Of a stretch of DNA of 64,000 nt, positions 35,195-54,950 are shown piece after piece; within the stretch, counting starts at the first letter, position 1; every line of letters starts with the position of its first letter. This DNA comes from Naegleria gruberi (Eukaryota): the NCBI GenBank assembly GCA_000004985.1, contig GG738869.1; one strand, written 5' to 3'. The translations under genes and the position numbers were made by a program. Below the pieces are notes generated by a model that had not been told where the DNA came from, ran no database searches, and saw only the letters and a list, made by a program, of their open reading frames with translations.

Positions 35195-38100
35195 GTGGAT
35201 AATTATTTCGAGATGAGCTCCCACATAGTAACATTGAATACTCAAGAGGTTAGAGAAAGAAACAAGAATCGGAATGATAAACCAAAAGAAATTGAACAAA
35301 GAAATCCGTTTTACGACCAAGGACAAAGTTTGATCAGGTCCAGTCTAATGAAACTTCAACAGGAAGAAATTAATACTTATGAATTCAAGTATTTTTCGAA
35401 CAAACCAAAGAAGGTTTTCAGTACATCGTTTAGTATATCTTTGAGAAATGATATTTTACGGTTTTCAGGAGAGGACACTCTTTTTACACCAACATTTTTA
35501 GGAAAAAGAATGACTGAGGATGAATCATCAGATGAATCATCTGAGGAAGGTACAAAGATAATTATTGAAGTAGGCAGTAGTAGTGACGAAGAAGAGGAAT
35601 TTGCATTTAATGAAACAGAAGTTGATGGTCGACCAATTATGGAAGCAATGGATTATAGCAGTACTAGTGGATCAGATGAAGAGGAAAGCGAAGAAGAAGG
35701 AACAAGTGAAAGTGATGAAGAAACAATATCTAGGACTAGTAGGAAACGCACTCTTGATGAAAGAGTAACCTATCCAACCTATGATAGAGACTCATTCAAA
35801 TTCACTCCTATTCAGACTAGTGAGGAATTGTATCAGGAACTTACCTTAAAGGATTACCAATTGGAAGCCATCAACTTTTTATTCAATAATTACTGTGAAA
35901 ATAGGCCATCCTGTCTTGCCCATGAAATGGGTTTAGGAAAAACAATTATATCACTTTCAACACTAAACATAATGTACAAGAAATTAGGAGTATTTGGACC
36001 ATTTTTGATAGTTGTACCTTTAATTACTTTGCCTAACTGGGAAAGAGAGGCAAAGAAATGGTTGCCTCAATTTAAATGTCATACAGCTTGGGGAACTGCT
36101 GTAAATGGCACCAAAGCTAAAGCTCTTGAAGACACATCTAAATTATATTCTGAATCAGTATCTGAACAGACCCCTTTACTTGTATTGACGACATACGAAT
36201 TTTTGAAAGAAACTACTGTGACCAGAAAAAAATGGGCTTGTGTTATTTTCGATGAAGCTCACAAACTCAAATCTCAAAAAACTCAAGCAAGAAAAAACGC
36301 TGAGAAATTGAAGAAGGAATATTTTTTTCTTTTAACTGGTACTCCAATGCAGAATTCTCCAGAAGAGCTATGGAGCTTGTTGAATTTACTGGATCCCCGA
36401 GCGTTTCCTAGCTATAAGTTATTTGAGGAAAAATATGGAGAGTTGGAGACCGAAACTGCTATTACAAACCTTAAAACAGCAATTGCACCTTACTTGATAA
36501 GAAAGACGAAAGCACAAGTTTTGCATGCAGAAATGCCACCAAAAGAAGAAATCCTTATTGAAATTGAATTGAGTTCAATTCAAAAGTCTGTATATAGAGC
36601 TATTGTTGAGAGAAAAGTGAACTTTTTTAGAAAACAGTTTGCCTCTAAACAAGATTTAACATACATTGTAAATAGTCTGAGATATTGTTGCAATCACCCT
36701 TGTCTCATATCTGGAATGGAAGAATATCTGAGAGATGAACAAAAACGTGATGATAAGGGTATTCTCATTTATAGCTCTTCTAAAATGGTTGTGGTTCACA
36801 AACTTCTTAAGAAATTTAGGGATGCCAATGAAAAGACATTGATACTCTCTCAATTTTTGGAAATGTTGGATGTTTTGGAAAGTTATTTACAATCAGAACA
36901 AATATCATATGTTAGAATAGATGGATCTTGCCCTTCAGAGGAACGACAACGTTACATTGACAAATTTCAAACAGATTCTGAATGTAGAGTTTTTCTACTC
37001 TCTACCAAAATAAGTCAAGGTATTAATTTAACAGCTGCAAATCATGTGATTATTTATGACTCTGATTTTAATCCTTTCAACGATTCACAAGCAGCAGCAA
37101 GAGCTCATAGAATAGGTCAAACAAAGAAAGTATTTGTTTACAGATTGGTAACAAAGGATTCCTATGAAAAATATATTATTTCTAGGGCTAGTAAAAAGTT
37201 AGGAAGAGAAAAATTAGTTTTGGCAGAATCAGATAAATCAGATGAAGATATTACTGCAGAAGAAATGCAGAGAATGATAAAATATGGAGTCTACTCACTG
37301 TTTTTGAATAAGGAACAAAATATCAATAAGGACAATGAATTGATGAACACAGATATTGATAAGATTCTGGAAAGATCCAGTAAAATTGGAGTTGAAGGAG
37401 AAGAGGATGGTTCCTTAGTAGATGTTATTAATCGAGTTACTGGTAATGATAAATCAATAGAAAAACAAACATCGAACGAGGTTATTAAGAGTGTATACTT
37501 TGTTCCCGTAGAGGAGGTTAGTGATGTTGCATTAGATGATCCAAACTTTTGGGATAAGACATTTCCTGATTACTGTGACATTTATACACTGGAATCCAGA
37601 TTAGAAAATGTTAAACCATTTGAAGCTCATGAATTTGAGAGCTATTTCAAAAAATTGGTCCATGTTGCGACCGAATCTATCAATAGAAGACAAAAGGTTT
37701 CTGAAGAGACAGAGAAGCTCTCTCGAGTTGTTGAAGAAGACAAAAGAGGCTTGCCAACAAAAAATCAATTACATACTTTTTTACTCAAACTTAACTCTCA
37801 AAGATACAATCACCACTATCACAGTCTACAAAAAGATCACCTAGACCAAGTTCAGAAATGGATAGATCAACTAGAAACAAAAACTCTTAGAAATAAGAAA
37901 GTGTGGGCTTCTAGTTCAGATAACATTAAGAAGCAGGAAAAAAGATCTTCATCCAATGTTAATGATCATTTAGATTCTGATGCTGAGTTTGATGGATCAG
38001 ATAGTGATGATGGAGATAATACTGATGACGAATTTGAGTGTGACCAGAATGAATTGGTGAGAGAATCTGAAAGTTTACATAACATTAATATCAAGACTGC

Positions 38101-38383
38101 ACCTCCCAAAAAGAAACAGAAAACAACCCGTAGTAATAGAGGTATTCGAGAGAAGTCTTCTGAAAATGAATCAGAAAGACCACACAAAAAACCAACAACT
38201 CATAAGAAAGAACTCAAGTTTGAAAAAAGTCAAGTTTCAAATCATTTACCTCCACCAACAACAAGACAGGACACAATGAAACAGCAACCAACAACAGGTT
38301 TTTGGCCCAGCCATATGCAGAACACTCCTCTTCAATTGTTTCATCCAGTGGAAGCTCCTCTACAAATCCTTGTTCAGCACTAA
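35195..38383 (+). CDS. SNF2-family chromatin-remodelling ATPase, 1062 aa, with an acidic N-terminus
   Basis: Helicase motifs DYQLEAINFL...LAHEMGLGKT (I), DEAHKLKS (II), LLTGTPMQNSPEELWSLLNLL (III), and helicase-C LSTKISQGINLTAANHVIIYDSDFNPFNDSQAAARAHRIGQTKKVFVYRLVT. Confidence 0.85.
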   Translation: MDNYFEMSSHIVTLNTQEVRERNKNRNDKPKEIEQRNPFYDQGQSLIRSSLMKLQQEEINTYEFKYFSNKPKKVFSTSFSISLRNDILRFSGEDTLFTPTFLGKRMTEDESSDESSEEGTKIIIEVGSSSDEEEEFAFNETEVDGRPIMEAMDYSSTSGSDEEESEEEGTSESDEETISRTSRKRTLDERVTYPTYDRDSFKFTPIQTSEELYQELTLKDYQLEAINFLFNNYCENRPSCLAHEMGLGKTIISLSTLNIMYKKLGVFGPFLIVVPLITLPNWEREAKKWLPQFKCHTAWGTAVNGTKAKALEDTSKLYSESVSEQTPLLVLTTYEFLKETTVTRKKWACVIFDEAHKLKSQKTQARKNAEKLKKEYFFLLTGTPMQNSPEELWSLLNLLDPRAFPSYKLFEEKYGELETETAITNLKTAIAPYLIRKTKAQVLHAEMPPKEEILIEIELSSIQKSVYRAIVERKVNFFRKQFASKQDLTYIVNSLRYCCNHPCLISGMEEYLRDEQKRDDKGILIYSSSKMVVVHKLLKKFRDANEKTLILSQFLEMLDVLESYLQSEQISYVRIDGSCPSEERQRYIDKFQTDSECRVFLLSTKISQGINLTAANHVIIYDSDFNPFNDSQAAARAHRIGQTKKVFVYRLVTKDSYEKYIISRASKKLGREKLVLAESDKSDEDITAEEMQRMIKYGVYSLFLNKEQNINKDNELMNTDIDKILERSSKIGVEGEEDGSLVDVINRVTGNDKSIEKQTSNEVIKSVYFVPVEEVSDVALDDPNFWDKTFPDYCDIYTLESRLENVKPFEAHEFESYFKKLVHVATESINRRQKVSEETEKLSRVVEEDKRGLPTKNQLHTFLLKLNSQRYNHHYHSLQKDHLDQVQKWIDQLETKTLRNKKVWASSSDNIKKQEKRSSSNVNDHLDSDAEFDGSDSDDGDNTDDEFECDQNELVRESESLHNINIKTAPPKKKQKTTRSNRGIREKSSENESERPHKKPTTHKKELKFEKSQVSNHLPPPTTRQDTMKQQPTTGFWPSHMQNTPLQLFHPVEAPLQILVQH

Positions 38384-40566: not shown

Positions 40567-43197
40567 ATGTCTTACTTCAAGCCTTTGGAAATTAAGAGTA
40601 TTTTGACTAAAAAGACTGACCAATTGGATCTTGTCAGACCATTAACAAAATTTATTTCGATACAATATGGAGAACATATTTTGAAAGATTATGAAACTCC
40701 AATCTCTGCCCTTCAACAACGTAGAAATGAAATGAGAAATTTACAAGAGAAGAGTGAAGGATCAAGGGATTTATGTATTAGGTAAGGTTATTGTTCCGAT
40801 GACAATATTTATTAATATTATTATTATTTCGTGATTAGATATGCTGTTGATATGATGCAAGTTGCTAGCCATTTCCCAATTGATACAGGTGTTCAACGTA
40901 TACAAGTACAATTCTCTTGGTATGACAGTCTTAGTCGTGCTAGAACAACACAAGGAAATTCAAATTTTGAAATTGCAAACGTTTTATTTAATAGTGCTGT
41001 TTTATCTCATCAACTTGGTACATCACAAAATAGAAATTCCGAAGAGGGTTGTTTGGAAGCAGCCAAACACTTCCAAAGTGCTGCCGGAATGTTTACCTAT
41101 ATTCAAAAGAAGGTGTGTCCAAATATTGTAGAAAAACTTAATCAAGATTTAACAAACGAAGCTTTGGAAGCATTAGTTTTAATTTGCTTAGCCAATGCTC
41201 AACAATGTATTTGCGAAAAAGCTCACAAGAAGAATATGAAAGGAGCAATTTTATCAAAGTTATATATGGGTGCTAGTCATAGTTACAAGCTTGCTGCTGA
41301 AGTTATTGATGCCTCCAACACTACAAAGAATCTCTTTGACAAGACATGGAAGTCCTATCTCAGATTTTGTCAACACTACTTTGAAGCTTTGGCATCCTAT
41401 CTTATTGCTTTAGATCTTCATGAGGAAATGTGCATTGGCAAGGAAATTACAAGAATTATCCATGCTCAAAATTGTCTTGTTGATTGTTCCGAGCAAAGAG
41501 TGACTGGTAATTTAAAGCTTGTTATGGATGAATTGGATCAAGTACTCAACAATTTGTTAAAGACTGCTCAACATGAAAATTCAAAGATTTATCACGATCG
41601 TGTTCCTGAATTGAAGGATTTGGAACTTGTTGAAGCCAAGACAATGTCAAAGATTCAAGAAGTTAATGAAATTTCCGATTTATTGAAGGAAAAGATTGCT
41701 GATCCATTCTTTAACCTCTTCCCTATTCCAGTTATGGAAGCCAAGCAAAAGTATGAAGAAAATATCAAGAAGAGAATGAATGAAGTTTTTGTTCAAGCTC
41801 GTCAACATCGTGAATATATTAGAAATGAACTTTCAAAGATGGGACTCCCTGGATCAATTTTGATGGTTGACCAAAAGTCAGGATTCCCAGATGAGGTTCA
41901 CCACAAGATCTCCAAGATCAACTTGGAAGGAGGTATCAATAGATTATTTGAATTGAAGCAAACATTGGATGAAATGTCTGGTGAAACCAAGAATCAACTC
42001 GATTCCATCACTAAAAAGCTCGATGAAGAACAAAAGGAAGATGATGAATGTCGTATGCAATACGGAGCTAACAGATGGCCAAGATTGGAAAGCGCCAAGC
42101 TTACTAGCAATTTGAGAAAGCAAATAACTGACTATCAACAAAAGCTGAAGATTGCCATCAACTCTGATAGTTTGATTGATAAGAAGATTTCTGAAAACTC
42201 TGAAGGATTCAAATGGTTCTCTCTCGATAGTAAGACTTTGAATGACAAGATGCCACAAAGTCTCTCTCAAATCATGGAACCAAGCTCACAATTTGGCAAG
42301 TCATATTCTGACCTCAAGTTATATTTGGCACAACTTGACGATATTCTTGAACAAGAACTTGCCATTGAGTCCAACATTTCCAATTCATTCAAATTACAAG
42401 ATAAGGAGATTGAACTCAAACTTTTAGCTTCTCAAAGTAATTTGGAATCTTCTGTACAACAATTATTACAAGAACAAGAAGCCAAGTTTAAGGAACTTTT
42501 GGTTGATTTCCCACAAAAAGAAAATACCTATCTCCAATCCATTCAAGAAGCAAACAGAACTTTTGAACAACACAAGTCTCAAAATTCTATTCAAAGTCAA
42601 AGAGAACAAATTTTACAATTCATTTACAATGCTATCAACAAGTATAATGAAATTAGTGCCAATTTGCAAGAAGGTATCAATTTTTATACAACAATGCAAG
42701 AAATTACCAAGAAACTTGCTAATCGTATTGATGACTTTGTTTTTGCCAGAAGAACAGAAAAACAAGATATTATGGTCAATATTCAACAACAAATTAGTGG
42801 TGTTACAATTGATCCACAATATAATTATTCCTCTTCACAACAACCAAAACCAGTCCATGGTTCAAACACTCCTGTATATTCATCATCCACTATAACTTCT
42901 CAACCAACAACCACCAATACAACCAGCTCATCGCAATACCAACCTCAATATCAATACCAACCAAACGCTTATCAACAACCACCACAACAATATCAACCAC
43001 AAGTTGCCTACCAACAACAACCTCAATACCAACAAGCACAACCATATATGCAAGGAAGTGGTAGCTTTACTCAACCTCAATTCCAATACGTACAACAACA
43101 ACAACAACAACAACCTTACTACAATCCAAACGCTCAATACCAACAACAACAACAACCTTCGTATCAGAATCCTAATCAACCCCAATACAGAAGATAA
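40567..43197 (+). CDS. BRO1-domain protein (ALIX/Bro1 homolog) with a YQ/P-rich C-terminus. Two exons: 40567..40781 and 40839..43197; intron 40782..40838 with GTAAGG donor and GATTAG acceptor.
   Basis: The splice joins ...SRDLCI(R) to YAVDMMQVASHFPID.... BRO1 features: FSWYDSL, NVLFNSAVLSHQLG, coiled-coil V-domain-like middle. C-terminal QYQPQYQYQPNAYQQPPQQYQ repeats. Confidence 0.8.
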
Positions 43198-43316: not shown

Positions 43317-44444
43317 GTGGGTGCCGTGACCATTCCAAGACACGATACAATATCATCTCCTTTTTTCAGATTTCTGTCTCCTTCCAAAAAAGTCTTTGTT
43401 ATTGCACTTGAAGTACCAAGCTACTTTTTTCTAGCTAATTGCTTTTCCATTTACATCACAACAAAAAAACAACATAACATTCTCTTTATGATTGTGCCAA
43501 CCTCACCTCGTTCGCAACCATCATTGATTCTTGGTAAAAGAGGAGAATCCCTCCTCTCCTCCAACTCTGTGCACCAAAACACTGATCACCAAACAAATAA
43601 TGCCTTCAAACAATCCCTTCTTGATAAGAAACATCATTACCTACCACCACAACAACAAGTGTTTTTATGTTATGAGAGAATGCCTTCATCACTGCCTGTT
43701 TTTCAACAATTAGATCAAAATTCAACTTGGCCTACAATAGAAAACAATTCTTGTAATTGTCCTTCACCACCAGCTATTATACCTCCTCCTAAGAATACAT
43801 ATTATAATAACAACCCTAATAGAAACTCATCGATACCAACCACTACAAATAATCATCACCACTCAATAACCAATTGTTATGCTGCCCAGCAAATCCCCTC
43901 TTTTGGTAATATGGTTCACCATATTGTAGAAAAGGGATTTCACCACCACAACCCAAATAACAAACGAACAAGGGATGATAATCAAGATGATGCCAATAGC
44001 ACAGATGATAACCGACAATACCAATCAGATATTGTGCCAATGACCAATACTCAAAAGAGAAAGATTGATAATTCCTCCTCGACACTTAAATCTGAACCAA
44101 CAGGATATCAACCTTTGGAAGATTCTACTCTTCTCTTTTTGATGGATCTTGTATGTAAAGTCGTTGAAAAGAAGGAACCTGTACATTCACCCAATTTCAA
44201 TTTGTCCTCGGATCTGATATCGTGTAGTGTAAGCAGTAATAATAGTCATTGCTCAAGTCCACAAACAACACGATCAGTTAAATCCTCTCCAATACCTATT
44301 GCCAATGATGAGTATTCAAATCATGCTAGTAACAATGATGCTGTATCTCATCAGTCATCATCTTTATCATCTTTACAAGAACAGAACAGAAGCAAAAAGC
44401 CACACCGAACAAGTGTCTTGACAATAAAAGAGTTGTTGAACTAA
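43317..44444 (+). CDS. Hypothetical S/N/P-rich protein
   Basis: 375-aa ORF of low complexity. Possible internal start MIVPTSPRS. Confidence 0.3.
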   Translation: MGAVTIPRHDTISSPFFRFLSPSKKVFVIALEVPSYFFLANCFSIYITTKKQHNILFMIVPTSPRSQPSLILGKRGESLLSSNSVHQNTDHQTNNAFKQSLLDKKHHYLPPQQQVFLCYERMPSSLPVFQQLDQNSTWPTIENNSCNCPSPPAIIPPPKNTYYNNNPNRNSSIPTTTNNHHHSITNCYAAQQIPSFGNMVHHIVEKGFHHHNPNNKRTRDDNQDDANSTDDNRQYQSDIVPMTNTQKRKIDNSSSTLKSEPTGYQPLEDSTLLFLMDLVCKVVEKKEPVHSPNFNLSSDLISCSVSSNNSHCSSPQTTRSVKSSPIPIANDEYSNHASNNDAVSHQSSSLSSLQEQNRSKKPHRTSVLTIKELLN

Positions 44445-44675: not shown

Positions 44676-45332
44676 ATGCAACAGCCAGTGATTCTTGAAT
44701 CATTCATGATTTTGAATAGAAAAAAAACCTTCAACTCAATCATGAACGTGAACAATCAACATACTGCAACGACAGCTTCAACTGATGTTGAGCATGACCA
44801 TGAAGAAAGTGAGACAATTTCAGTGATTTCAGTCATTATGCCAAATATCCACGAAGATAACAGTAAAAGAGAATTGGATTACTCGAATACCAAGCACCAA
44901 TATAAGCAATGTGATATGTTTGGAAGAAAACATGACTTTCAGTGTGGGAAGAATGTTGAGCCGAAGTTGCGAAAGTACGAGGTTGAACCTTTTTTTAGTA
45001 CACACAATGATTCGAAATATCAGAAATCATTAAAAAGAATGTCACCAAAGCAAACAACTGGCAAAATCAAGAAGGAGAAACATAGAATGCGCACAAGCAA
45101 AATCACTACGATAGCTTTGAGTCCTGTTGTGGAAAAAGAAGAGAAAGAAAACGAAACATTGAATCAAGAGGATACTCCTCAACCAGAACAAACTAATCTC
45201 AATTCAGTTAACAAGGAGAATGAAAAGATGGTAATTGATTCCACCACAAGTTTTGATGTTTTCATGATCATGTTTCTAGTTGGATTATATACAAGCAGAA
45301 AATATGGACAAAAACACAACTCTAATTCATAA
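44676..45332 (+). CDS. Hypothetical protein with a hydrophobic C-terminal segment (possible tail anchor)
   Basis: 218-aa ORF; C-terminal FDVFMIMFLVGLYTS. Confidence 0.3.
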   Translation: MQQPVILESFMILNRKKTFNSIMNVNNQHTATTASTDVEHDHEESETISVISVIMPNIHEDNSKRELDYSNTKHQYKQCDMFGRKHDFQCGKNVEPKLRKYEVEPFFSTHNDSKYQKSLKRMSPKQTTGKIKKEKHRMRTSKITTIALSPVVEKEEKENETLNQEDTPQPEQTNLNSVNKENEKMVIDSTTSFDVFMIMFLVGLYTSRKYGQKHNSNS

Positions 45333-45420: not shown

Positions 45421-46723
45421 CTAAAGGTTAAAATCGAATTGTTCCTTATTGCATTCATTGCAAGTTGGAGTTTCAGGAACACCTTTCAAATTCGAAACAA
45501 AATGACTAATCAAAGCTGCATACCACATTACTGCACGATTATTAACCTGTTGAAGACAACTCAATGCAATATAAGGACAATACTTTTTACGTGGAAAGAT
45601 AATATGCTTGGGTTGTACCTTTATATTGTCGGTTTGATCTAGTTTCATTCCAACAATAATCACTTCACATTCAGGTTCCACTCGTTTGATAGCTCTGAAC
45701 CAATTTGGCGTATTTTTATAAGTGATTCTACTCGTAAGATCAAAGCTAATGATACACGCTGAAGCATTTACATAATAGGCATCTCTGAGTGCACCAAATT
45801 TTTCAGGACCAGCTGTTTGGAGTTAAATCTTCTCATTTCAAATCGAATGAAAACTTACCTGTATCCCATAAATTGAGATTTGTTTCCAAATTGCCAATTT
45901 TCAATTGGTACGAATTGACTTCACATCCCATAGTTACTAGATATCGTTTATCAAACTGAAAATCATCATTCATTGATCTGCAAAATGTAGTTTTTCCAAC
46001 TAGAAATTATTAGATTGTGAAATATTTCACAAATTACAACTTACCTCCACCATCTCCAATAATCAAAATCTTTTTCGTTTCAGTATTGTTGTTTAAAGTT
46101 GATGAAGAGTCAACCAATTGATCCTTATGTTGAAATAAGGAAGAAACTATGGAAATTTGCTTGTTAGTTGATTCACTTGCATTCACACTTGGTAATTTCC
46201 TATAGAAATGTGAAAAGTAAAAGTTGAACAGTTCCAATCTCGATTGAAATAATTCCATTAAACGTTGATTCTCAATTGTGGAACCCTCATTCATTGATTT
46301 AGTATCATCAACAACTATATTTTCCTGATTATTGGAATTTCTTGATACTTGATTCTTCTTTAAAATTCCCTCTCTTGTCAATGAATTTTCATACTTTACA
46401 ATAAATTTCAATAATTCATCTCTAATAATATATCGAACTTGTCTAATTGAAAAATTATCAATCAAATGGACTTGTTTAATTTCCTCCCCTTGATCATCAT
46501 CCATTTTCTTCACCTCTCCGAATCTTCTTTTCAAATATTCATTCGCCAATTCATATCGAAAAACCTTACAAACTCTTCCCACTGAAAAAATCATATCAAG
46601 AACATCAAAATATTCGCAGATTTGATAGAGCCAAATCTCTTTCGGAAGATTGATTGCCACTGTGGCAAGAATGTTTGATTCTTCTTCTTCTTGTTGTTCC
46701 ATTTTATTTTGTTTTGAGATCAA
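45421..46723 (-). CDS. F-box-like domain fused to a divergent Ran-like small GTPase, about 403 aa. Three minus-strand exons: 46723..46045, 45999..45859 and 45812..45421; introns 46000..46044 (45 nt) and 45813..45858 (46 nt), both with GTAAGT donors and YAG acceptors.
   Basis: N-terminal LPKEIWLYQICEYFDVLDMIFSVGRVCKVFRYEL (F-box-like). The GTPase is reconstructed across the introns: KILIIGDGGVGKTTFCRSMNDDFQFDKRYLVTMGCEVNSYQLKIGNLETNLNLWDTAGPEKFGALRDAYYVNASACIISFDLTSRITYKNTPNWFRAIKRV...IIVGMKLDQ. This is collinear with Ran (GDGGTGKTT...WDTAGQEKFGGLRDGYYI...DVTSRVTYKNVPNWHRDL...CGNKVD), but with G3 Q to P and G4 NKxD to MKLD. Confidence 0.7.
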
Positions 46724-47015
46724 AGAGTTTTTGAAGAAAATGGAATTTTAATGGAAAGATTAGAAATTCCCGCCAAGAGAATTCAAACGATGAAGGATCG
46801 TGGGTTCGAGACCCATTGGTGGTATCAAATTTTTAGTAACTAATAATTAATTATATCAAAATTAATGAAACAATTTGCAATACTTATTCCAATATTGGAA
46901 TCAATGTATTGAATATATTTCAATATCTTTTTACAAAGACCTATGAGGTCAGTTGAATATTATCTTTCGAATGTCTCTCTCAATGATTATGATAACTAAA
47001 ATTCATCCAAAAAAA

Positions 47016-47918
47016 ATGTCAAAAGTCATCTTCTTGATTTTACTCTTGTGTTTCATCGGTGTCATTAACGCTTCTGGTTCTATTTTCAACCCAACCGATG
47101 CAGAAATTGATCAAATTATCGAAATGTCAGACTCTGAATTTTCTTCTGGCACCAAATTCGCATCCCTCACAACTTTAAATGTTCGTGAAGGTCCTTGCAC
47201 TGATAAGAAAATTGTTACCACACTCGGATCTGATGTTGTTGTTACCTATACTGGTAAATCCATCACTGCCTGTGGTCATACTTGGTTCTCAGTTTCTGGA
47301 ACTTTTGGACAAGGTTATGCCTCATCAACCTATTTGAGACAAGTTGTTAATCCTGGAGCTGGATCTGCTTTTAGAAATTCTGCTGCTCAATGGGCTGCTT
47401 CAAAGGCTGGAAGTTGTTATTCACAAGCCAATAGATATGGAAATCCATGTTATGATTGTTCTAGTTTGGTAGGTTGTTGTGGAGGTTGAATGGTGATTGG
47501 TGGAATAATCTAATTTTTTTATTGATTGATTGATATATTTGAATGTTTCTTGCGCCTATATTAGGTTCATCTTGCTTATAAACAATCTGGTAAGCCTAAT
47601 GTTCCACTCACTACCAGATTGTATCCTAATAGTGCTGTTAAGGAAATTAGTAAGAATGAAATTGCTGCTGGTGATATTTTGTGGAGAGAAGTAAGTAGTA
47701 AGAGTGAAAACAATTGTTCTGAACTCTAGCTCAATTATTATTAATATTAATATTTATATATTTATATTGAATGAAAATTGAAATTTTTGATTAATTAGGG
47801 ACATGTTGGCATGTATCTTGGCAATGGACAAGTGGTTAATGCTGAAAATGAAAAGAATGGTGTTAAAATCAGAACTTTTGCCAATTTCAGATATACCAAG
47901 ATTTATAGAGTTCTTTAA
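47016..47918 (+). CDS. Secreted bacterial-type cell-wall hydrolase: signal peptide + SH3b-like domain + NlpC/P60 cysteine peptidase. Three exons: 47016..47468, 47565..47690 and 47799..47918; introns 96 and 108 nt with GTAGGT/GTAAGT donors and TATTAG/AATTAG acceptors.
   Basis: Signal peptide MSKVIFLILLLCFIGVINASG. SH3b-like TLNVREGPCTDKKIVTTLGSDVVVTYTG...WFSVS. NlpC/P60 blocks AAQWAASKAGSCYSQANRYGNPCYDCSSLVHLAYKQSG (catalytic Cys in DCSxLV), GDILWREGHVGMYLGNGQVVNA (catalytic His). All splice junctions are in frame. Confidence 0.8.
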
Positions 47919-48030: not shown

Positions 48031-48111
48031 GCAGGGGTTCCCGAGTGGTCAAAGGGGGTAGACTCAAGTTCTACTGCGCAAGCTTCGTGGGTTCAAATCC
48101 CACCTTCTGCA
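48031..48111 (+). tRNA. tRNA-Leu (anticodon CAA), class II with a long variable arm
   Basis: Acceptor stem GCAGGGG/CTTCTGC (two G-U pairs) plus discriminator A. D-region CCCGAGTGGTCAAAGGGGG. Anticodon stem GTAGA/TCTAC with loop CTCAAGT. Long variable arm. T-arm GTGGG-TTCAAAT-CCCAC. Confidence 0.85.
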
Positions 48112-50968: not shown

Positions 50969-52048
50969 ATGGCCAATTGGTTCGATCAAGATTTAATAGT
51001 GGCCAATGTTTTTCTGAATTTAAATCCAATGGAAGTTTTTCATCCACACAGTGGTTGTTTGATGGTTTGTAAGGATTGGAATCAGATTATTTGCAGTGCA
51101 GAATTTGCAAAATATTACTTTGAAACTTCTTTTTGTGTTTCGACTCCTTTTTTCAATGATGAAAATTGTCAAGAATTTGATAATCTTGACTCCCCAATTG
51201 AGCATAATTTAGAGGAAGCAATTGAGAGGTACATTCTTGGCTTGGAACACAAAATTGATGATGAATATGAGGAAGAAGTCAATGATGATGAACAAACAGT
51301 TGATGCATTGGATTGTGTGAAATTGTTTGAAAATGAGCTTGGAACCAAAACTAAATTAATGTGGAAAAACAATTTTTATAGAAAGTTTCTGACACTTGTT
51401 TCAATAATGGAAAGAGGTGATTATCCTCCACTCTGTAATTCAGATTCAGTCTCAGATACAACTCCCCTCCACGAACAGATTGGAAAATTATTGAAACCTT
51501 TAAATCAAAATCAAATCGACAAATTGAATATTATTTTGAAGAAATTGCAATTTTCCAAATTGTTGACCAACTCTATCAAAACAAGATCAGGAAAAGTTGT
51601 AATATTCCATGACTCGGGTTTGCCCTATATTCTATCATCTTTTTACGCAAATGTTTGTCTTGGCAGTATTGTTGTGTTAAATGTCGAAAGGCAATTTAAA
51701 AGTCAACTGTCTATTTTCCTTCCCCCATGCAGTGCAGAGGAGGAGACAACATTTAGAGATGTTCTCTGTGGACTATTATCTCCAATATTGAATATTATTA
51801 AGGAACGGAAATCCAATATCAGAAGACCTCTCAATACATACATGCTATTTTCTCAACAAAAAGTGAATGAGATAAAACTAAAAAATCCAACATTGAAAAT
51901 AATAGAGCTAGCAAGGATAATTGTCAACTGTTGGGAAAATTTGAATGAAAATGAACAACAACTATTTGTTGAAGAGGAAAACAAACTGAAAATGGAATAT
52001 CAGAGACAGTTGGAAAATTTCCAGTACATTATTTCAGGTTTAAACTAA
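50969..52048 (+). CDS. HMG-box DNA-binding protein (359 aa; HMG box near the C-terminus)
   Basis: RPLNTYMLFSQQKVNEIKLKNPTLKIIELARIIVNCWENLNENEQQLFVEEENKLKMEYQRQLENFQ fits the HMG-box consensus (RPxNAFxLF...W..L....K..Y...A...K..Y). Confidence 0.65.
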   Translation: MANWFDQDLIVANVFLNLNPMEVFHPHSGCLMVCKDWNQIICSAEFAKYYFETSFCVSTPFFNDENCQEFDNLDSPIEHNLEEAIERYILGLEHKIDDEYEEEVNDDEQTVDALDCVKLFENELGTKTKLMWKNNFYRKFLTLVSIMERGDYPPLCNSDSVSDTTPLHEQIGKLLKPLNQNQIDKLNIILKKLQFSKLLTNSIKTRSGKVVIFHDSGLPYILSSFYANVCLGSIVVLNVERQFKSQLSIFLPPCSAEEETTFRDVLCGLLSPILNIIKERKSNIRRPLNTYMLFSQQKVNEIKLKNPTLKIIELARIIVNCWENLNENEQQLFVEEENKLKMEYQRQLENFQYIISGLN

Positions 52049-53618: not shown

Positions 53619-54950
53619 ATGGGTAAGGAAAAGTCACACATTAACGTTGTCGTCATTGGTCACGTCGACGCTGGTAAGTCAACTACTACTGGTCACTTGA
53701 TCTACAAGTGTGGTGGTATTGATAAGAGAGTCATTGAAAAGTTCGAAAAGGAAGCTGCTGAAATGGGTAAATCCTCATTCAAGTATGCTTGGGTTTTGGA
53801 CAAGTTGAAGGCTGAAAGAGAAAGAGGTATCACTATTGATATTGCTCTCTGGAAGTTCGAATCTAAGAAGTACGTCTTCACCATCATTGATGCTCCAGGT
53901 CACAGAGATTTCATTAAGAACATGATTACTGGTACCTCCCAAGCTGACGTTGCTATCTTGGTTGTTGACTCAACTAACGGTGGTTTCGAAGCTGGTTTCT
54001 CCAAGGATGGTCAAACTAGAGAACACGCTTTGCTCGCCTACACTTTGGGTATTAAGCAAATGATTGTCTGTATGAACAAGTTCGATGATGAATCTGTCAA
54101 ATACTCTGATAAGAGATATGAAGAAATCAAGTCTGAAGTTGGTAGATACTTGAAGTCTTTGGGTTTCCAAACTGAAGAAGGTAAGCCAAACTGTGTCCAA
54201 TTCGTCCCAATTTCTGGTTGGACTGGTGACAACATGATTGAAAAGTCTGACAAGATGCCATGGTACAAGGGACCATGTCTTTTGGATGCTTTGGATAACT
54301 TGGTTGAACCTGTTAGACCAACTGATAAGCCATTGAGATTGCCACTCCAAGATGTTTACAAGATTGGTGGTATTGGTACTGTCCCAGTCGGTAGAGTTGA
54401 AACTGGTAAATTGAAGCCAGGTATGGTTGTTCACTTTGCTCCAGGTCAAGCTGCTGATACTGAAGTTAAGTCTGTCGAAATGCATCACACTTCTGTCCCA
54501 GAAGCTGGTCCAGGTGACAATGTTGGTTTCAACGTTAAGGGTTTGTCCACCACTGATATTAAGAGAGGTTATGTTGCTTCTGATGCTAAGAATGATCCAT
54601 CCAGAGAAGCTGTTTCTTTCAATGCTCAAGTTATTATCATGAATCACCCTGGTGAAATCAGAAACGGTTACACTCCAGTTTTGGATTGTCACACCTCCCA
54701 CATTGCTTGCAAGTTCGAAACTATCATTGAAAAGATTGATAGAAGATCTGGTAAGACTCAAGAAGCTAACCCAGAAAAGATCAAGAAGGGTGACTCTGCT
54801 ATCGTCAAGATTGTTCCAACCAAGCCAATGTGTGTTGAAGGTTTCGTTGAATATCCACCTTTGGGTAGATTCGCTGTCAGAGACATGAAGCAAACTGTCG
54901 CTGTCGGTGTTATTAAGTCTGTTGAAAAGAAGGAACCTTCCAAGAAGTAA
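53619..54950 (+). CDS. EEF1A: Translation elongation factor 1-alpha, 443 aa, intronless, with strongly biased (highly expressed type) codon usage
   Basis: [76 protein letters not shown], and domains II/III are conserved. Codons are GGT/AAG/TTC/AGA-rich. Confidence 0.95.

What the first reader, a model, noticed from the sequence alone, without database searches (positions are those of the whole stretch)
45421..46723. F-box-like domain fused to a Ran-like GTPase with substituted catalytic motifs
Splicing across two tiny introns (45 and 46 nt) reconstructs a complete Ran-type G domain: GDGGVGKTT P-loop, switch-I Thr, and the Ran-specific DxTSRxTYKNxPNW block. The catalytic glutamine of G3 is replaced by proline (WDTAGPE), and the G4 NKxD is MKLD. 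Both changes are expected to impair GTP hydrolysis and/or guanine specificity. The about 225-aa N-terminal extension carries an F-box-like motif (LPKEIWLYQICEYFDVLDMIFSVGRVCKVFRYEL). An F-box-Ran-like architecture is not one I recognise. It could be a GTP-locked substrate adaptor for an SCF ligase, or a Ran-pathway decoy.
Basis: partly seen in the sequence, partly recalled or inferred. Interest (0 to 1): 0.7.

Follow-up and report, generated by a model that had tools for sequence, protein, structure and literature searches.

The report
Known Naegleria F-box–Ran-like GTPase gene
This is a real three-exon gene of the amoeba Naegleria gruberi that joins an F-box (a ubiquitin-ligase docking motif) to a divergent Ran-type GTPase domain; this gene model and its F-box–Ran architecture were already listed in a 2021 genome paper, and its function has not been tested.

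Summary
On the minus strand, exons 46702-46045, 45999-45859 and 45812-45421 are joined across GT..AG introns of 45 and 46 nt and encode 396 aa. The protein has an N-terminal F-box-like motif, a roughly 150-aa helical linker and a Ran-type G domain. Ran/Gsp1 score 134 bits against about 74 bits for Rabs. G3 reads DTAGPE, G4 reads MKLD, G5 reads SCL, and the acidic Ran tail is absent.

The fusion is not a splicing artefact. In N. lovaniensis and in an intronless metagenomic relative, the N-terminal module and the P-loop lie in one uninterrupted exon.

It is also not new. The identical 396-aa sequence is printed in Herman et al. 2021 (BMC Biol 19:142, Table S8) as the corrected model XP_002677020.1, family Ran, extra domain F-box. 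That paper reports F-box fusions to Rab, Rho, Ran and Galpha domains across Naegleria.

The window protein alone falls below Pfam's F-box cut-off. Relatives that pass the cut-off and a profile-profile match (95.5%) support the assignment. Related orthologues show dN/dS of about 0.19, so the family is not decaying.

"GTP-locked" remains an inference. Rac1 uses TKLD normally, and HRAS Q61P is non-transforming.

My most likely reading is a Skp1/SCF-linked protein whose Ran-derived domain is the partner-binding module. This is untested.

The parts
46045..46702 (-). Exon 1: ATG start, F-box-like motif, helical linker and the first half of the P-loop (aa 1-219 plus 1 nt)
   Evidence: The translation is identical to the published corrected model.
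46000..46044 (-). Intron 1, 45 nt, GTAAGT...TAG, phase 1, inside the P-loop (GDGG|VGKTT)
   Evidence: It contains an in-frame TAA. This intron is absent in the N. lovaniensis homologue, where the N-terminal module and the P-loop form one exon.
45859..45999 (-). Exon 2: rest of the P-loop, switch I (Thr242), up to WDT
45813..45858 (-). Intron 2, 46 nt, GTAAGT...CAG, phase 1, between WDT and AGPE
   Evidence: An intron sits at the same codon and phase in N. lovaniensis (77 nt) and in Logan contig L002 (70 nt).
45421..45812 (-). Exon 3: switch II (AGPEKFGALRD), Ran-specific block, G4 MKLD, G5 SCL, short non-acidic C-terminus, TAG stop
46523..46651 (-). F-box-like motif (aa 18-60)
   Evidence: Pfam F-box-like scores E 0.017-0.047, below the cut-off. 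Homologues P0122 and P0123 pass Pfam's F-box cut-off. hhalign against canonical F-boxes gives probability 95.5%.
46190..46222 (-). Second conserved block of the N-terminal module, FYFSHFYRKLP (aa 161-171), function unknown
   Evidence: F161, Y162, S164, H165, F166 and P171 are invariant in all six family members aligned.
45805..45807 (-). Pro269 codon at the position of the catalytic Gln (Ran Q69)
   Evidence: Gln occurs in 55/55 Ran homologues. Pro occurs in the window, N. lovaniensis, L002 and P0122. Gln occurs in paralogue P0001.
45637..45648 (-). G4 motif MKLD (Ran NKVD)
   Evidence: Asn occurs in 55/55 Ran homologues, Thr in the other family members, and Met only here. Lys and Asp are retained.
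45700..45741 (-). Ran-specific block DLTSRITYKNTPNW
   Evidence: Alignment to human Ran (DVTSRVTYKNVPNW) and to Gsp1.

Best explanation
Shown:
- The locus is the Naegleria gruberi gene catalogued as XP_002677020.1 (corrected model).
- It is one of two N. gruberi paralogues of a Naegleria-lineage protein built as N-terminal F-box, then a roughly 150-aa helical linker carrying a conserved FYFSHF...P block, then a Ran-derived G domain.
- The gene is intact. The architecture is conserved across species. Its relatives evolve under purifying selection.
- The G domain keeps every residue needed to bind Mg-GTP: the P-loop GxxxxGKT, switch-I Thr, DxxG, and Lys and Asp of G4.
- It also keeps a nearly Ran-identical switch II and helix-3 block.
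- It has lost the catalytic Gln (Pro), the G4 Asn (Met), the SAK of G5, and the whole C-terminal switch helix with its acidic tail.

Inferred mechanism:
- The F-box docks the protein onto Skp1 and hence a cullin-1 (SCF) ligase.
- The slow-hydrolysing Ran-like domain, which lacks the Ran-specific C-terminal autoinhibition, is the module that recognises partners. The SCF would then ubiquitinate those partners.
- In short, it would be a GTPase-domain substrate receptor, analogous to RhoBTB on Cul3.
- Candidate partners are proteins that read Ran's switch II and helix-3 surface, but none is identified.
For: Identity and prior description:
- The spliced translation is identical over all 396 aa to the sequence printed in Herman et al. 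2021, Table S8, annotated Ran with extra domain F-box and not flagged as a pseudogene.

Ran origin:
- Ran/Gsp1 score 134 bits against about 74 bits for the best Rab.
- The AlphaFold model of the paralogue's G domain (pLDDT 80-92) best matches Ran-GTP structures.

Real fusion:
- The N. lovaniensis homologue P0002 has the N-terminal module and the P-loop in one exon.
- The metagenomic relative P0122 is intronless with the same layout.
- The intron 2 position is conserved.

F-box:
- The N-terminal profile finds P0122 (E 1.8e-8) and P0123 (E 3.4e-4) among 1.84 billion proteins, matching over their F-box regions.
- Both pass Pfam's F-box cut-off, at 29.2 and 24.0 bits against 20.5.
- hhalign against canonical F-boxes gives probability 95.5%, E 1.5e-8.
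- The top two PDB hits are the F-boxes of cyclin F and FBXW7.

Selection:
- dN/dS is 0.185 between N. lovaniensis and the L002 species. The N-terminal part gives 0.23 and the G domain 0.14.

Link to ubiquitin:
- Herman et al. note F-box and BTB fusions on many Naegleria GTPases, and a sister divergent Ran carrying a ZnF-UBP domain.
Against: - No Skp1 binding, nucleotide binding, hydrolysis, expression or partner data exist for this protein or any relative.
- The window protein's own Pfam F-box score (13.9-15.3 bits) is below the 24.3-bit cut-off. It has two one-residue insertions relative to the canonical motif.
- The Leu-Pro dipeptide is Leu-Ser in two family members.
- AlphaFold gave no confident N-terminal structure (pLDDT 41, and below 50-70 in the full-length paralogue). 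The three-helix F-box fold is therefore not confirmed structurally.
- The sister paralogue retains Gln at G3, so loss of hydrolysis is not a fixed feature of the family.
- dN/dS was measured on related orthologues, not on this gene itself, and dS is near saturation (about 1.3).
Confidence: 0.5

Rival explanations
1. The F-box serves to control the GTPase itself rather than to recruit substrates. Through Skp1/SCF, the divergent Ran-like protein would be kept short-lived or be processed. The G domain would be the regulated cargo with its own signalling role, unrelated to transport.
For: - This is the interpretation offered for the only studied F-box GTPase, TbFRP. [quoted passage not shown]
- F-box proteins are commonly auto-ubiquitinated (general knowledge).
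Against: - There are no data on stability here.
- The conserved roughly 150-aa linker with the invariant FYFSHF...P block suggests a structured scaffold rather than a simple degron.
- The two readings are not mutually exclusive.
Confidence: 0.2
2. The N-terminal motif is F-box-derived or merely F-box-like and no longer binds Skp1. The protein would then be a lineage-specific divergent Ran paralogue whose helical N-terminal domain does something else, such as localisation or dimerisation.
For: - Pfam scores for the window protein and its Naegleria homologues are below the cut-off. N. lovaniensis P0002 gives no F-box hit at E<1.
- There are insertions relative to the canonical motif.
- The AlphaFold model has low confidence.
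- Herman et al. list no F-box for the N. fowleri divergent Rans.
Against: - The L-P-x-E-I...D...V-C-K-x-[WF]-R pattern is conserved across the family. L19, D36, F39, G42, C45, K46 and R49 are invariant.
- The profile-profile probability is 95.5%.
- Homologues in the same family pass Pfam's cut-off.
Confidence: 0.2
3. The region is a decaying pseudogene of canonical Ran that happens to lie downstream of an unrelated ORF.
For: - Catalytic and base-contact residues are substituted (Q69P, N122M, SAK to SCL) and the C-terminal tail is lost.
- Herman et al. report pseudogenes among Naegleria GTPase expansions, including one Ran in N. fowleri.
Against: - The 396-codon reading frame is intact, with canonical splice sites.
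- The same architecture has intact ORFs in at least four further genomes or contigs.
- All Mg- and phosphate-binding residues are invariant.
- dN/dS is 0.14-0.23 in related orthologues.
- The gene is not flagged as a pseudogene in the curated table.
Confidence: 0.03
4. The F-box exon and the GTPase exons belong to two different genes that were wrongly joined.
For: - In this window the junction lies inside an intron.
- The original automated NCBI model needed manual correction (asterisk in Table S8).
Against: - The P-loop is split by intron 1, so exon 1 already encodes ...KKILIIGDGG. Neither half makes sense alone.
- N. lovaniensis, L002 and P0122 encode the N-terminal module and the P-loop in one continuous exon.
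Confidence: 0.02

Closest known systems
Naegleria gruberi XP_002677020.1 (corrected model) and paralogue XP_002672613.1, listed as 'Ran + F-box' in Herman et al. 2021, BMC Biol 19:142, Additional file 10 (Table S8)
   Same: The window protein is identical (396/396 aa) to the first entry. It is 66-69% identical and fully colinear with the second, P0001.
   Different: Nothing differs for the first entry, because it is the same gene. The paralogue has GNGGVGKT, DTVGQE (Gln retained), TKLD, and Asn instead of the switch-I Tyr.
Canonical Ran/Gsp1
   Same: - Best match in the whole Ras superfamily (134 bits).
- Shares the P-loop GDGGxGKTT, switch-I Tyr and Thr, and switch II DTAGxEKFGxLRD.
- Shares the Ran-specific FDxTSRxTYKNxPNW block and the RKK basic patch.
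- No lipid-modification motif.
   Different: - A roughly 208-aa N-terminal extension.
- Q69 is Pro, N122 is Met, and SAK is SCL.
- No C-terminal switch helix or DEDDDL tail.
- Only about 38-42% identity over the G domain.
- Listed as having no orthologue outside Heterolobosea.
Other Naegleria F-box GTPases (Rab-like, Rho, Galpha) and the metagenomic F-box–Rab-like proteins P0122 and P0123
   Same: - N-terminal F-box followed by a Ras-superfamily G domain.
- P0122 is colinear over aa 18-373 (BLASTP 1e-22).
- P0122 shares the FYFSHF...P block, the GPE at G3, TKxD at G4 and the C-terminal WY.A motif.
   Different: Their G domains are Rab-like, with Rab8/Rab1 as best matches at about 100 bits. The G domain here is Ran-like.
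TbFRP (Trypanosoma brucei FYVE–F-box–Ras-like GTPase; PMC3593210)
   Same: An F-box lies upstream of a small-GTPase domain in a member of Discoba. The function of the F-box is unknown, and a link to ubiquitin and turnover has been proposed.
   Different: [quoted passage not shown]
- Its authors found no N. gruberi orthologue.
- No FYVE match was found here.
- The two are independent fusions.
RhoBTB (atypical Rho GTPase fused to BTB domains; Cul3 adaptor)
   Same: It is an analogue in logic. A hydrolysis-impaired small-GTPase domain is fused to a cullin-ligase docking domain. Herman et al. mention RhoBTB alongside the F-box fusions. The Cul3-adaptor role is from my own knowledge.
   Different: - BTB/Cul3 rather than F-box/Skp1/Cul1.
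- A Rho rather than a Ran G domain.
- The GTPase is N-terminal rather than C-terminal.

Membership tests
Ran family (Ras superfamily) | The G domain is more similar to Ran than to any other Ras-superfamily branch | tested here: met
   The first 44 PDB rows listed are Ran/Gsp1 chains at 126-134 bits, and the best Rab (Sec4) scores 74.6 bits. The Ran-specific block DLTSRITYKNTPNW is present.
Ran family (Ras superfamily) | Catalytic Gln in G3 (DTAGQE) | tested here: not met
   The window has DTAGPE. Gln occurs in 55/55 aligned Ran homologues.
Ran family (Ras superfamily) | G4 NKxD and G5 SAK guanine-binding motifs | tested here: not met
   The window has MKLD and SCL. Asn, Ala and Lys are invariant or nearly invariant in Ran homologues. 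Lys and Asp of G4 and Ser of G5 are retained.
Ran family (Ras superfamily) | C-terminal switch helix and acidic DEDDDL tail | tested here: not met
   The alignment with human Ran ends at about Ran residue 180. The tail here is ...CNECNKEQFDFNL.
Ran family (Ras superfamily) | Function in the RCC1/RanGAP/karyopherin cycle | not testable with these tools
   This needs binding and exchange assays.
F-box proteins | Match to Pfam F-box (PF00646) or F-box-like (PF12937) above the gathering score | tested here: not met
   - The window protein scores 13.9-15.3 bits against 24.3.
- The criterion is met by family members P0122 (29.2 against 20.5, and 25.7 against 24.3) and P0123 (24.0 against 20.5).
F-box proteins | Profile-level homology of the family's N-terminal block to canonical Skp1-binding F-boxes | tested here: met
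   - hhalign of A6 against A5 gives probability 95.5%, E 1.5e-8 over 39 columns.
The cyclin F and FBXW7 entries were corroborated by the PDB alignments.
- The N-terminal profile hits the F-box regions of P0122 and P0123.
F-box proteins | Three-helix F-box fold | tested here: inconclusive
   The AlphaFold models show three helices over the motif (H17-27, H30-35, H42-55 in the paralogue), but pLDDT is below 50.
F-box proteins | Binding to Skp1 | not testable with these tools
   This needs an interaction assay.
TbFRP family (FYVE–F-box–GTPase of Euglenozoa) | N-terminal FYVE domain and a Rab18-like G domain | tested here: not met
   There is no FYVE hit in Pfam at E<=1, and the G domain is Ran-like. 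The TbFRP authors found no Naegleria orthologue.

The most novel reading that the evidence does not exclude
The Ran-derived domain has Pro in place of the catalytic Gln and lacks the C-terminal autoinhibitory tail. It may sit constitutively in a Ran-GTP-like state and act as the substrate-recognition module of an SCF ligase. In that case it would deliver Ran-GTP-binding proteins, such as karyopherins or other readers of switch II, for ubiquitination. That would make it a GTPase-fold ubiquitin-ligase receptor tied to the nuclear-transport system. It would also be part of a broader Naegleria strategy of GTPase-gated ubiquitination that has never been studied experimentally.
Probability: 0.15. 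Interest if true: 0.6.

Novelty: already known. Interest (0 to 1): 0.25.

Why it matters
As a discovery it adds little. Both the gene and its F-box–Ran architecture are in the literature, although only in a supplementary table and text.

It still marks an untested idea. Naegleria has repeatedly fused cullin-ligase docking domains (F-box, BTB) and a ubiquitin-binding zinc finger to small-GTPase domains. This suggests nucleotide-state-dependent ubiquitination as a regulatory mode.

Four points found here go beyond the published note:
- The N-terminal module is shared with Rab-like F-box GTPases of uncultured relatives, and it carries a second invariant block (FYFSHF...P).
- Pro at the catalytic Gln position is the common state of the family. 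The Gln in the N. gruberi sister paralogue is the exception.
- The N. lovaniensis homologue and a related Naegleria contig (L002) carry the same module, and Herman et al.'s N. fowleri table lists no F-box for that species' divergent Rans.
- The family is under purifying selection.

Tried and rejected
- AlphaFold2 of the N-terminal 201 aa with a 4-sequence alignment gave pLDDT 41, unusable for fold search.
I therefore modelled the paralogue P0001. Only its G domain was confident. The fold search returned only Ran-GTP structures, which is partly circular because the alignment was dominated by Ran.
- hmmsearch of the whole N-terminal profile against PDB sequences gave only a chance-level COI1 hit outside its F-box.
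- Two further word-indexed homologue searches with N-terminal profiles found no members beyond P0001, P0121, P0122 and P0123. The exhaustive profile search found only four proteins in 1.84 billion. The module is therefore rare in public data.
- The DNA of paralogue P0001 is not on record, so dN/dS for the window gene itself could not be computed.
- tblastn found no second Ran-like gene in the window.
- A tRNA-like T-arm that I thought I saw at about 46790-46830 is not supported by ARAGORN or Rfam.
- Literature searches found no functional study of any Naegleria F-box GTPase.

Full report
**What is there.**
The window is AT-rich (about 34% GC) eukaryotic DNA. On the minus strand, 46702-45421 holds a three-exon gene.

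- Exon 1 (46702-46045) starts at an ATG and ends in ...KKILIIGDGG.
- A 45-nt GTAAGT...TAG intron follows (46044-46000).
- Exon 2 (45999-45859) continues VGKTTFC... to ...LWDT.
- A 46-nt GTAAGT...CAG intron follows (45858-45813).
- Exon 3 (45812-45421) runs AGPEKFGALRD... to a TAG stop.

Both introns carry in-frame stops, so the G domain is produced only after splicing. The product is 396 aa.

**It is Ran-derived.**
- Pfam Ras matches at E 3.7e-31.
- Against all PDB sequences, the first 44 rows listed are Ran/Gsp1 chains at 126-134 bits (E down to 5e-38). The best Rab, Sec4, reaches 74.6 bits.
- Alignment with human Ran and with 55 Ran homologues shows what is retained:
  - the P-loop
  - the switch-I Tyr and Thr
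  - DxxG
  - 13 of 16 switch-II residues
  - the FDxTSRxTYKNxPNW block
  - the RKK basic patch
- The same alignments show the losses:
  - The catalytic Gln is Pro. Gln occurs in 55/55 Ran homologues.
  - The G4 Asn is Met. Asn occurs in 55/55.
  - G5 SAK is SCL.
  - The C-terminal switch helix and DEDDDL tail are absent.

**Which organism, and is it known?**
The best database hit was 'ran family small GTPase [Naegleria gruberi]' (P0001 = XP_002672613.1), 66% identical and colinear. An N. lovaniensis protein came next.

A literature search led to Herman et al. 2021 (BMC Biol 19:142, PMC8296547).

- Additional file 10 (Table S8, N. gruberi sheet) prints a 'corrected' protein for XP_002677020.1. 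It is annotated Ran with additional domain F-box and is not marked as a pseudogene.
- That sequence is identical, 396/396, to my spliced translation. The window is therefore N. gruberi, and this very gene model and domain architecture are published.
- It also says the F-box is the most frequent additional domain and is found with Rab, Rho, Ran and Galpha GTPase domains. [quoted passage not shown]
- XP_002672613.1 is listed as the second Ran + F-box gene.
- An independent F-box + GTPase precedent is TbFRP of Euglenozoa, which is FYVE–F-box–Rab-like (PMC3593210).
- I found no functional study of any Naegleria F-box GTPase.

**Is the fusion real?**
Yes, on four grounds:
- The P-loop itself is split by intron 1, so neither half is a sensible gene alone.
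- In N. lovaniensis (L001 6001-7304), the whole N-terminal module and the G domain up to WDT are one uninterrupted exon. Its only intron lies at the same codon and phase as intron 2 here.
- A Naegleria contig from a Logan assembly (L002) has the same layout.
- A metagenomic relative, P0122, is intronless and colinear from the F-box to the C-terminus (BLASTP 1e-22 over aa 18-373).

**Is it an F-box?**
On its own the window protein is sub-threshold. PF12937 gives 13.9-15.3 bits against a gathering score of 24.3. The family-level evidence is good:
- A profile of four N-terminal regions, searched exhaustively against 1.84 billion representatives, found only four proteins.
- Two of these were new: P0122 (E 1.8e-8) and P0123 (E 3.4e-4). 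Both matched over their F-box regions.
- Both pass Pfam's F-box cut-off, at 29.2 and 24.0 bits against 20.5. P0122 also passes F-box-like.
- hhalign of the six-member F-box block against eight canonical F-boxes gave probability 95.5%, E 1.5e-8.
- The two best PDB hits of that block are the F-boxes of cyclin F and FBXW7, but only at E about 0.07.
- Structure prediction did not help, because pLDDT over the motif was below 50.
- The module has a second block, FYFSHF...P (aa 161-171), invariant in all six members and of unknown function.

**Is it decaying?**
- There are intact ORFs in five or more genomes or contigs.
- The Mg- and phosphate-binding residues are invariant.
- dN/dS is 0.185 between the N. 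lovaniensis and L002 orthologues. The N-terminal part gives 0.23 and the G domain 0.14. dS is about 1.3, so this is approximate.
- These results argue for function.

**What the substitutions mean.**
- Pro at the Gln position is the common state of the family. It occurs in the window, N. lovaniensis, L002 and the Rab-like P0122.
- The N. gruberi sister paralogue and L004 have Gln.
- G4 is TKxD in all other members. Fully functional Rac1 has GTKLD, and the Lys and Asp that specify guanine are retained.
- Loss of the catalytic Gln should slow hydrolysis. This is established for Ras-family GTPases and is inference here.
- Even so, HRAS Q61P is the codon-61 substitution that does not transform cells (review PMC6813200). 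'GTP-locked and active' therefore cannot be assumed.

**Most likely mechanism.**
The following steps are inferred, not shown:
- The F-box docks onto Skp1 and SCF.
- The Ran-derived domain binds nucleotide, hydrolyses slowly and is free of Ran's C-terminal autoinhibition.
- That domain is the partner-binding module, analogous to RhoBTB on Cul3.

The rivals are:
- The F-box controls the protein's own turnover, as proposed for TbFRP.
- The F-box is degenerate and no longer binds Skp1.
- The pseudogene and mis-joined-gene readings are effectively excluded.

**Verdict.**
Interest is low to moderate, because the biology is unexplored and the finding itself is not new.

Noticed in passing
window 46953-47489 (+), probably continuing to about 47900: The divergently oriented neighbour encodes a signal-peptide-like N-terminus followed by a bacterial-type SH3 domain (Pfam SH3_3, 27.9 bits). 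Its ORF ends in ...CYDCSSLVGCCGG, which by eye resembles an NlpC/P60 catalytic Cys motif. It may be a bacterial-type cell-wall hydrolase in an amoeba and possibly of horizontal origin. The ORF seems to be interrupted by an intron.
   Followed up: partly
L003 2130-3212 (P0122) and L004 101-1300 (P0123 plus the next ORF): Uncultured eukaryotes in metagenomes carry F-box–linker–Rab-like GTPases. Their N-terminal module, including the FYFSHF...P block, is homologous to that of the Naegleria F-box–Ran proteins. The same module is thus attached to G domains of two different families. P0122 also has GPE at G3, whereas L004 has the canonical Q and NKxD.
   Followed up: partly
L001 6001-7304 (N. lovaniensis) and L002 (Naegleria sp., Logan SRR29240419): These homologues have the same N-terminal module. 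Herman et al.'s N. fowleri table lists the divergent Rans (Ran2, Ran4) without any extra domain, and P0002 gives no Pfam F-box hit at E<1. The F-box in the N. fowleri/N. lovaniensis lineage therefore seems to have been missed. Their linker carries a roughly 30-aa Ser-rich insertion.
   Followed up: partly
L001 4678-5611 (-): In N. lovaniensis the F-box–Ran-like gene has a divergently transcribed neighbour encoding another small GTPase (281 aa, Ras/Roc). The N. gruberi window has no second small GTPase next to its copy, so the two loci do not look syntenic.
   Followed up: no
P0001 (XP_002672613.1), the N. gruberi paralogue: The sister paralogue has Gln at G3, whereas more distant relatives have Pro. 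This suggests a Pro-to-Gln reversal after duplication. It also has other unusual changes: P-loop GNGG, DTVGQE, and Asn in place of the switch-I Tyr.
   Followed up: no
window 43317-44444 (+) and 44676-45332 (+): The two ORFs downstream of the gene are rich in Asn, His, Ser and Thr low-complexity sequence and have no Pfam match. I did not establish whether they are exons of one gene.
   Followed up: no
window 48031-48111 (+); 40831-43197 (+); 35195-38383 (+); 50969-52048 (+); 53619-54950 (+): The surrounding genes are ordinary. They are tRNA-Leu(CAA), an ALIX/BRO1-domain protein, a SNF2-family helicase, an HMG-box protein and an EF-1alpha-type GTPase.
   Followed up: partly
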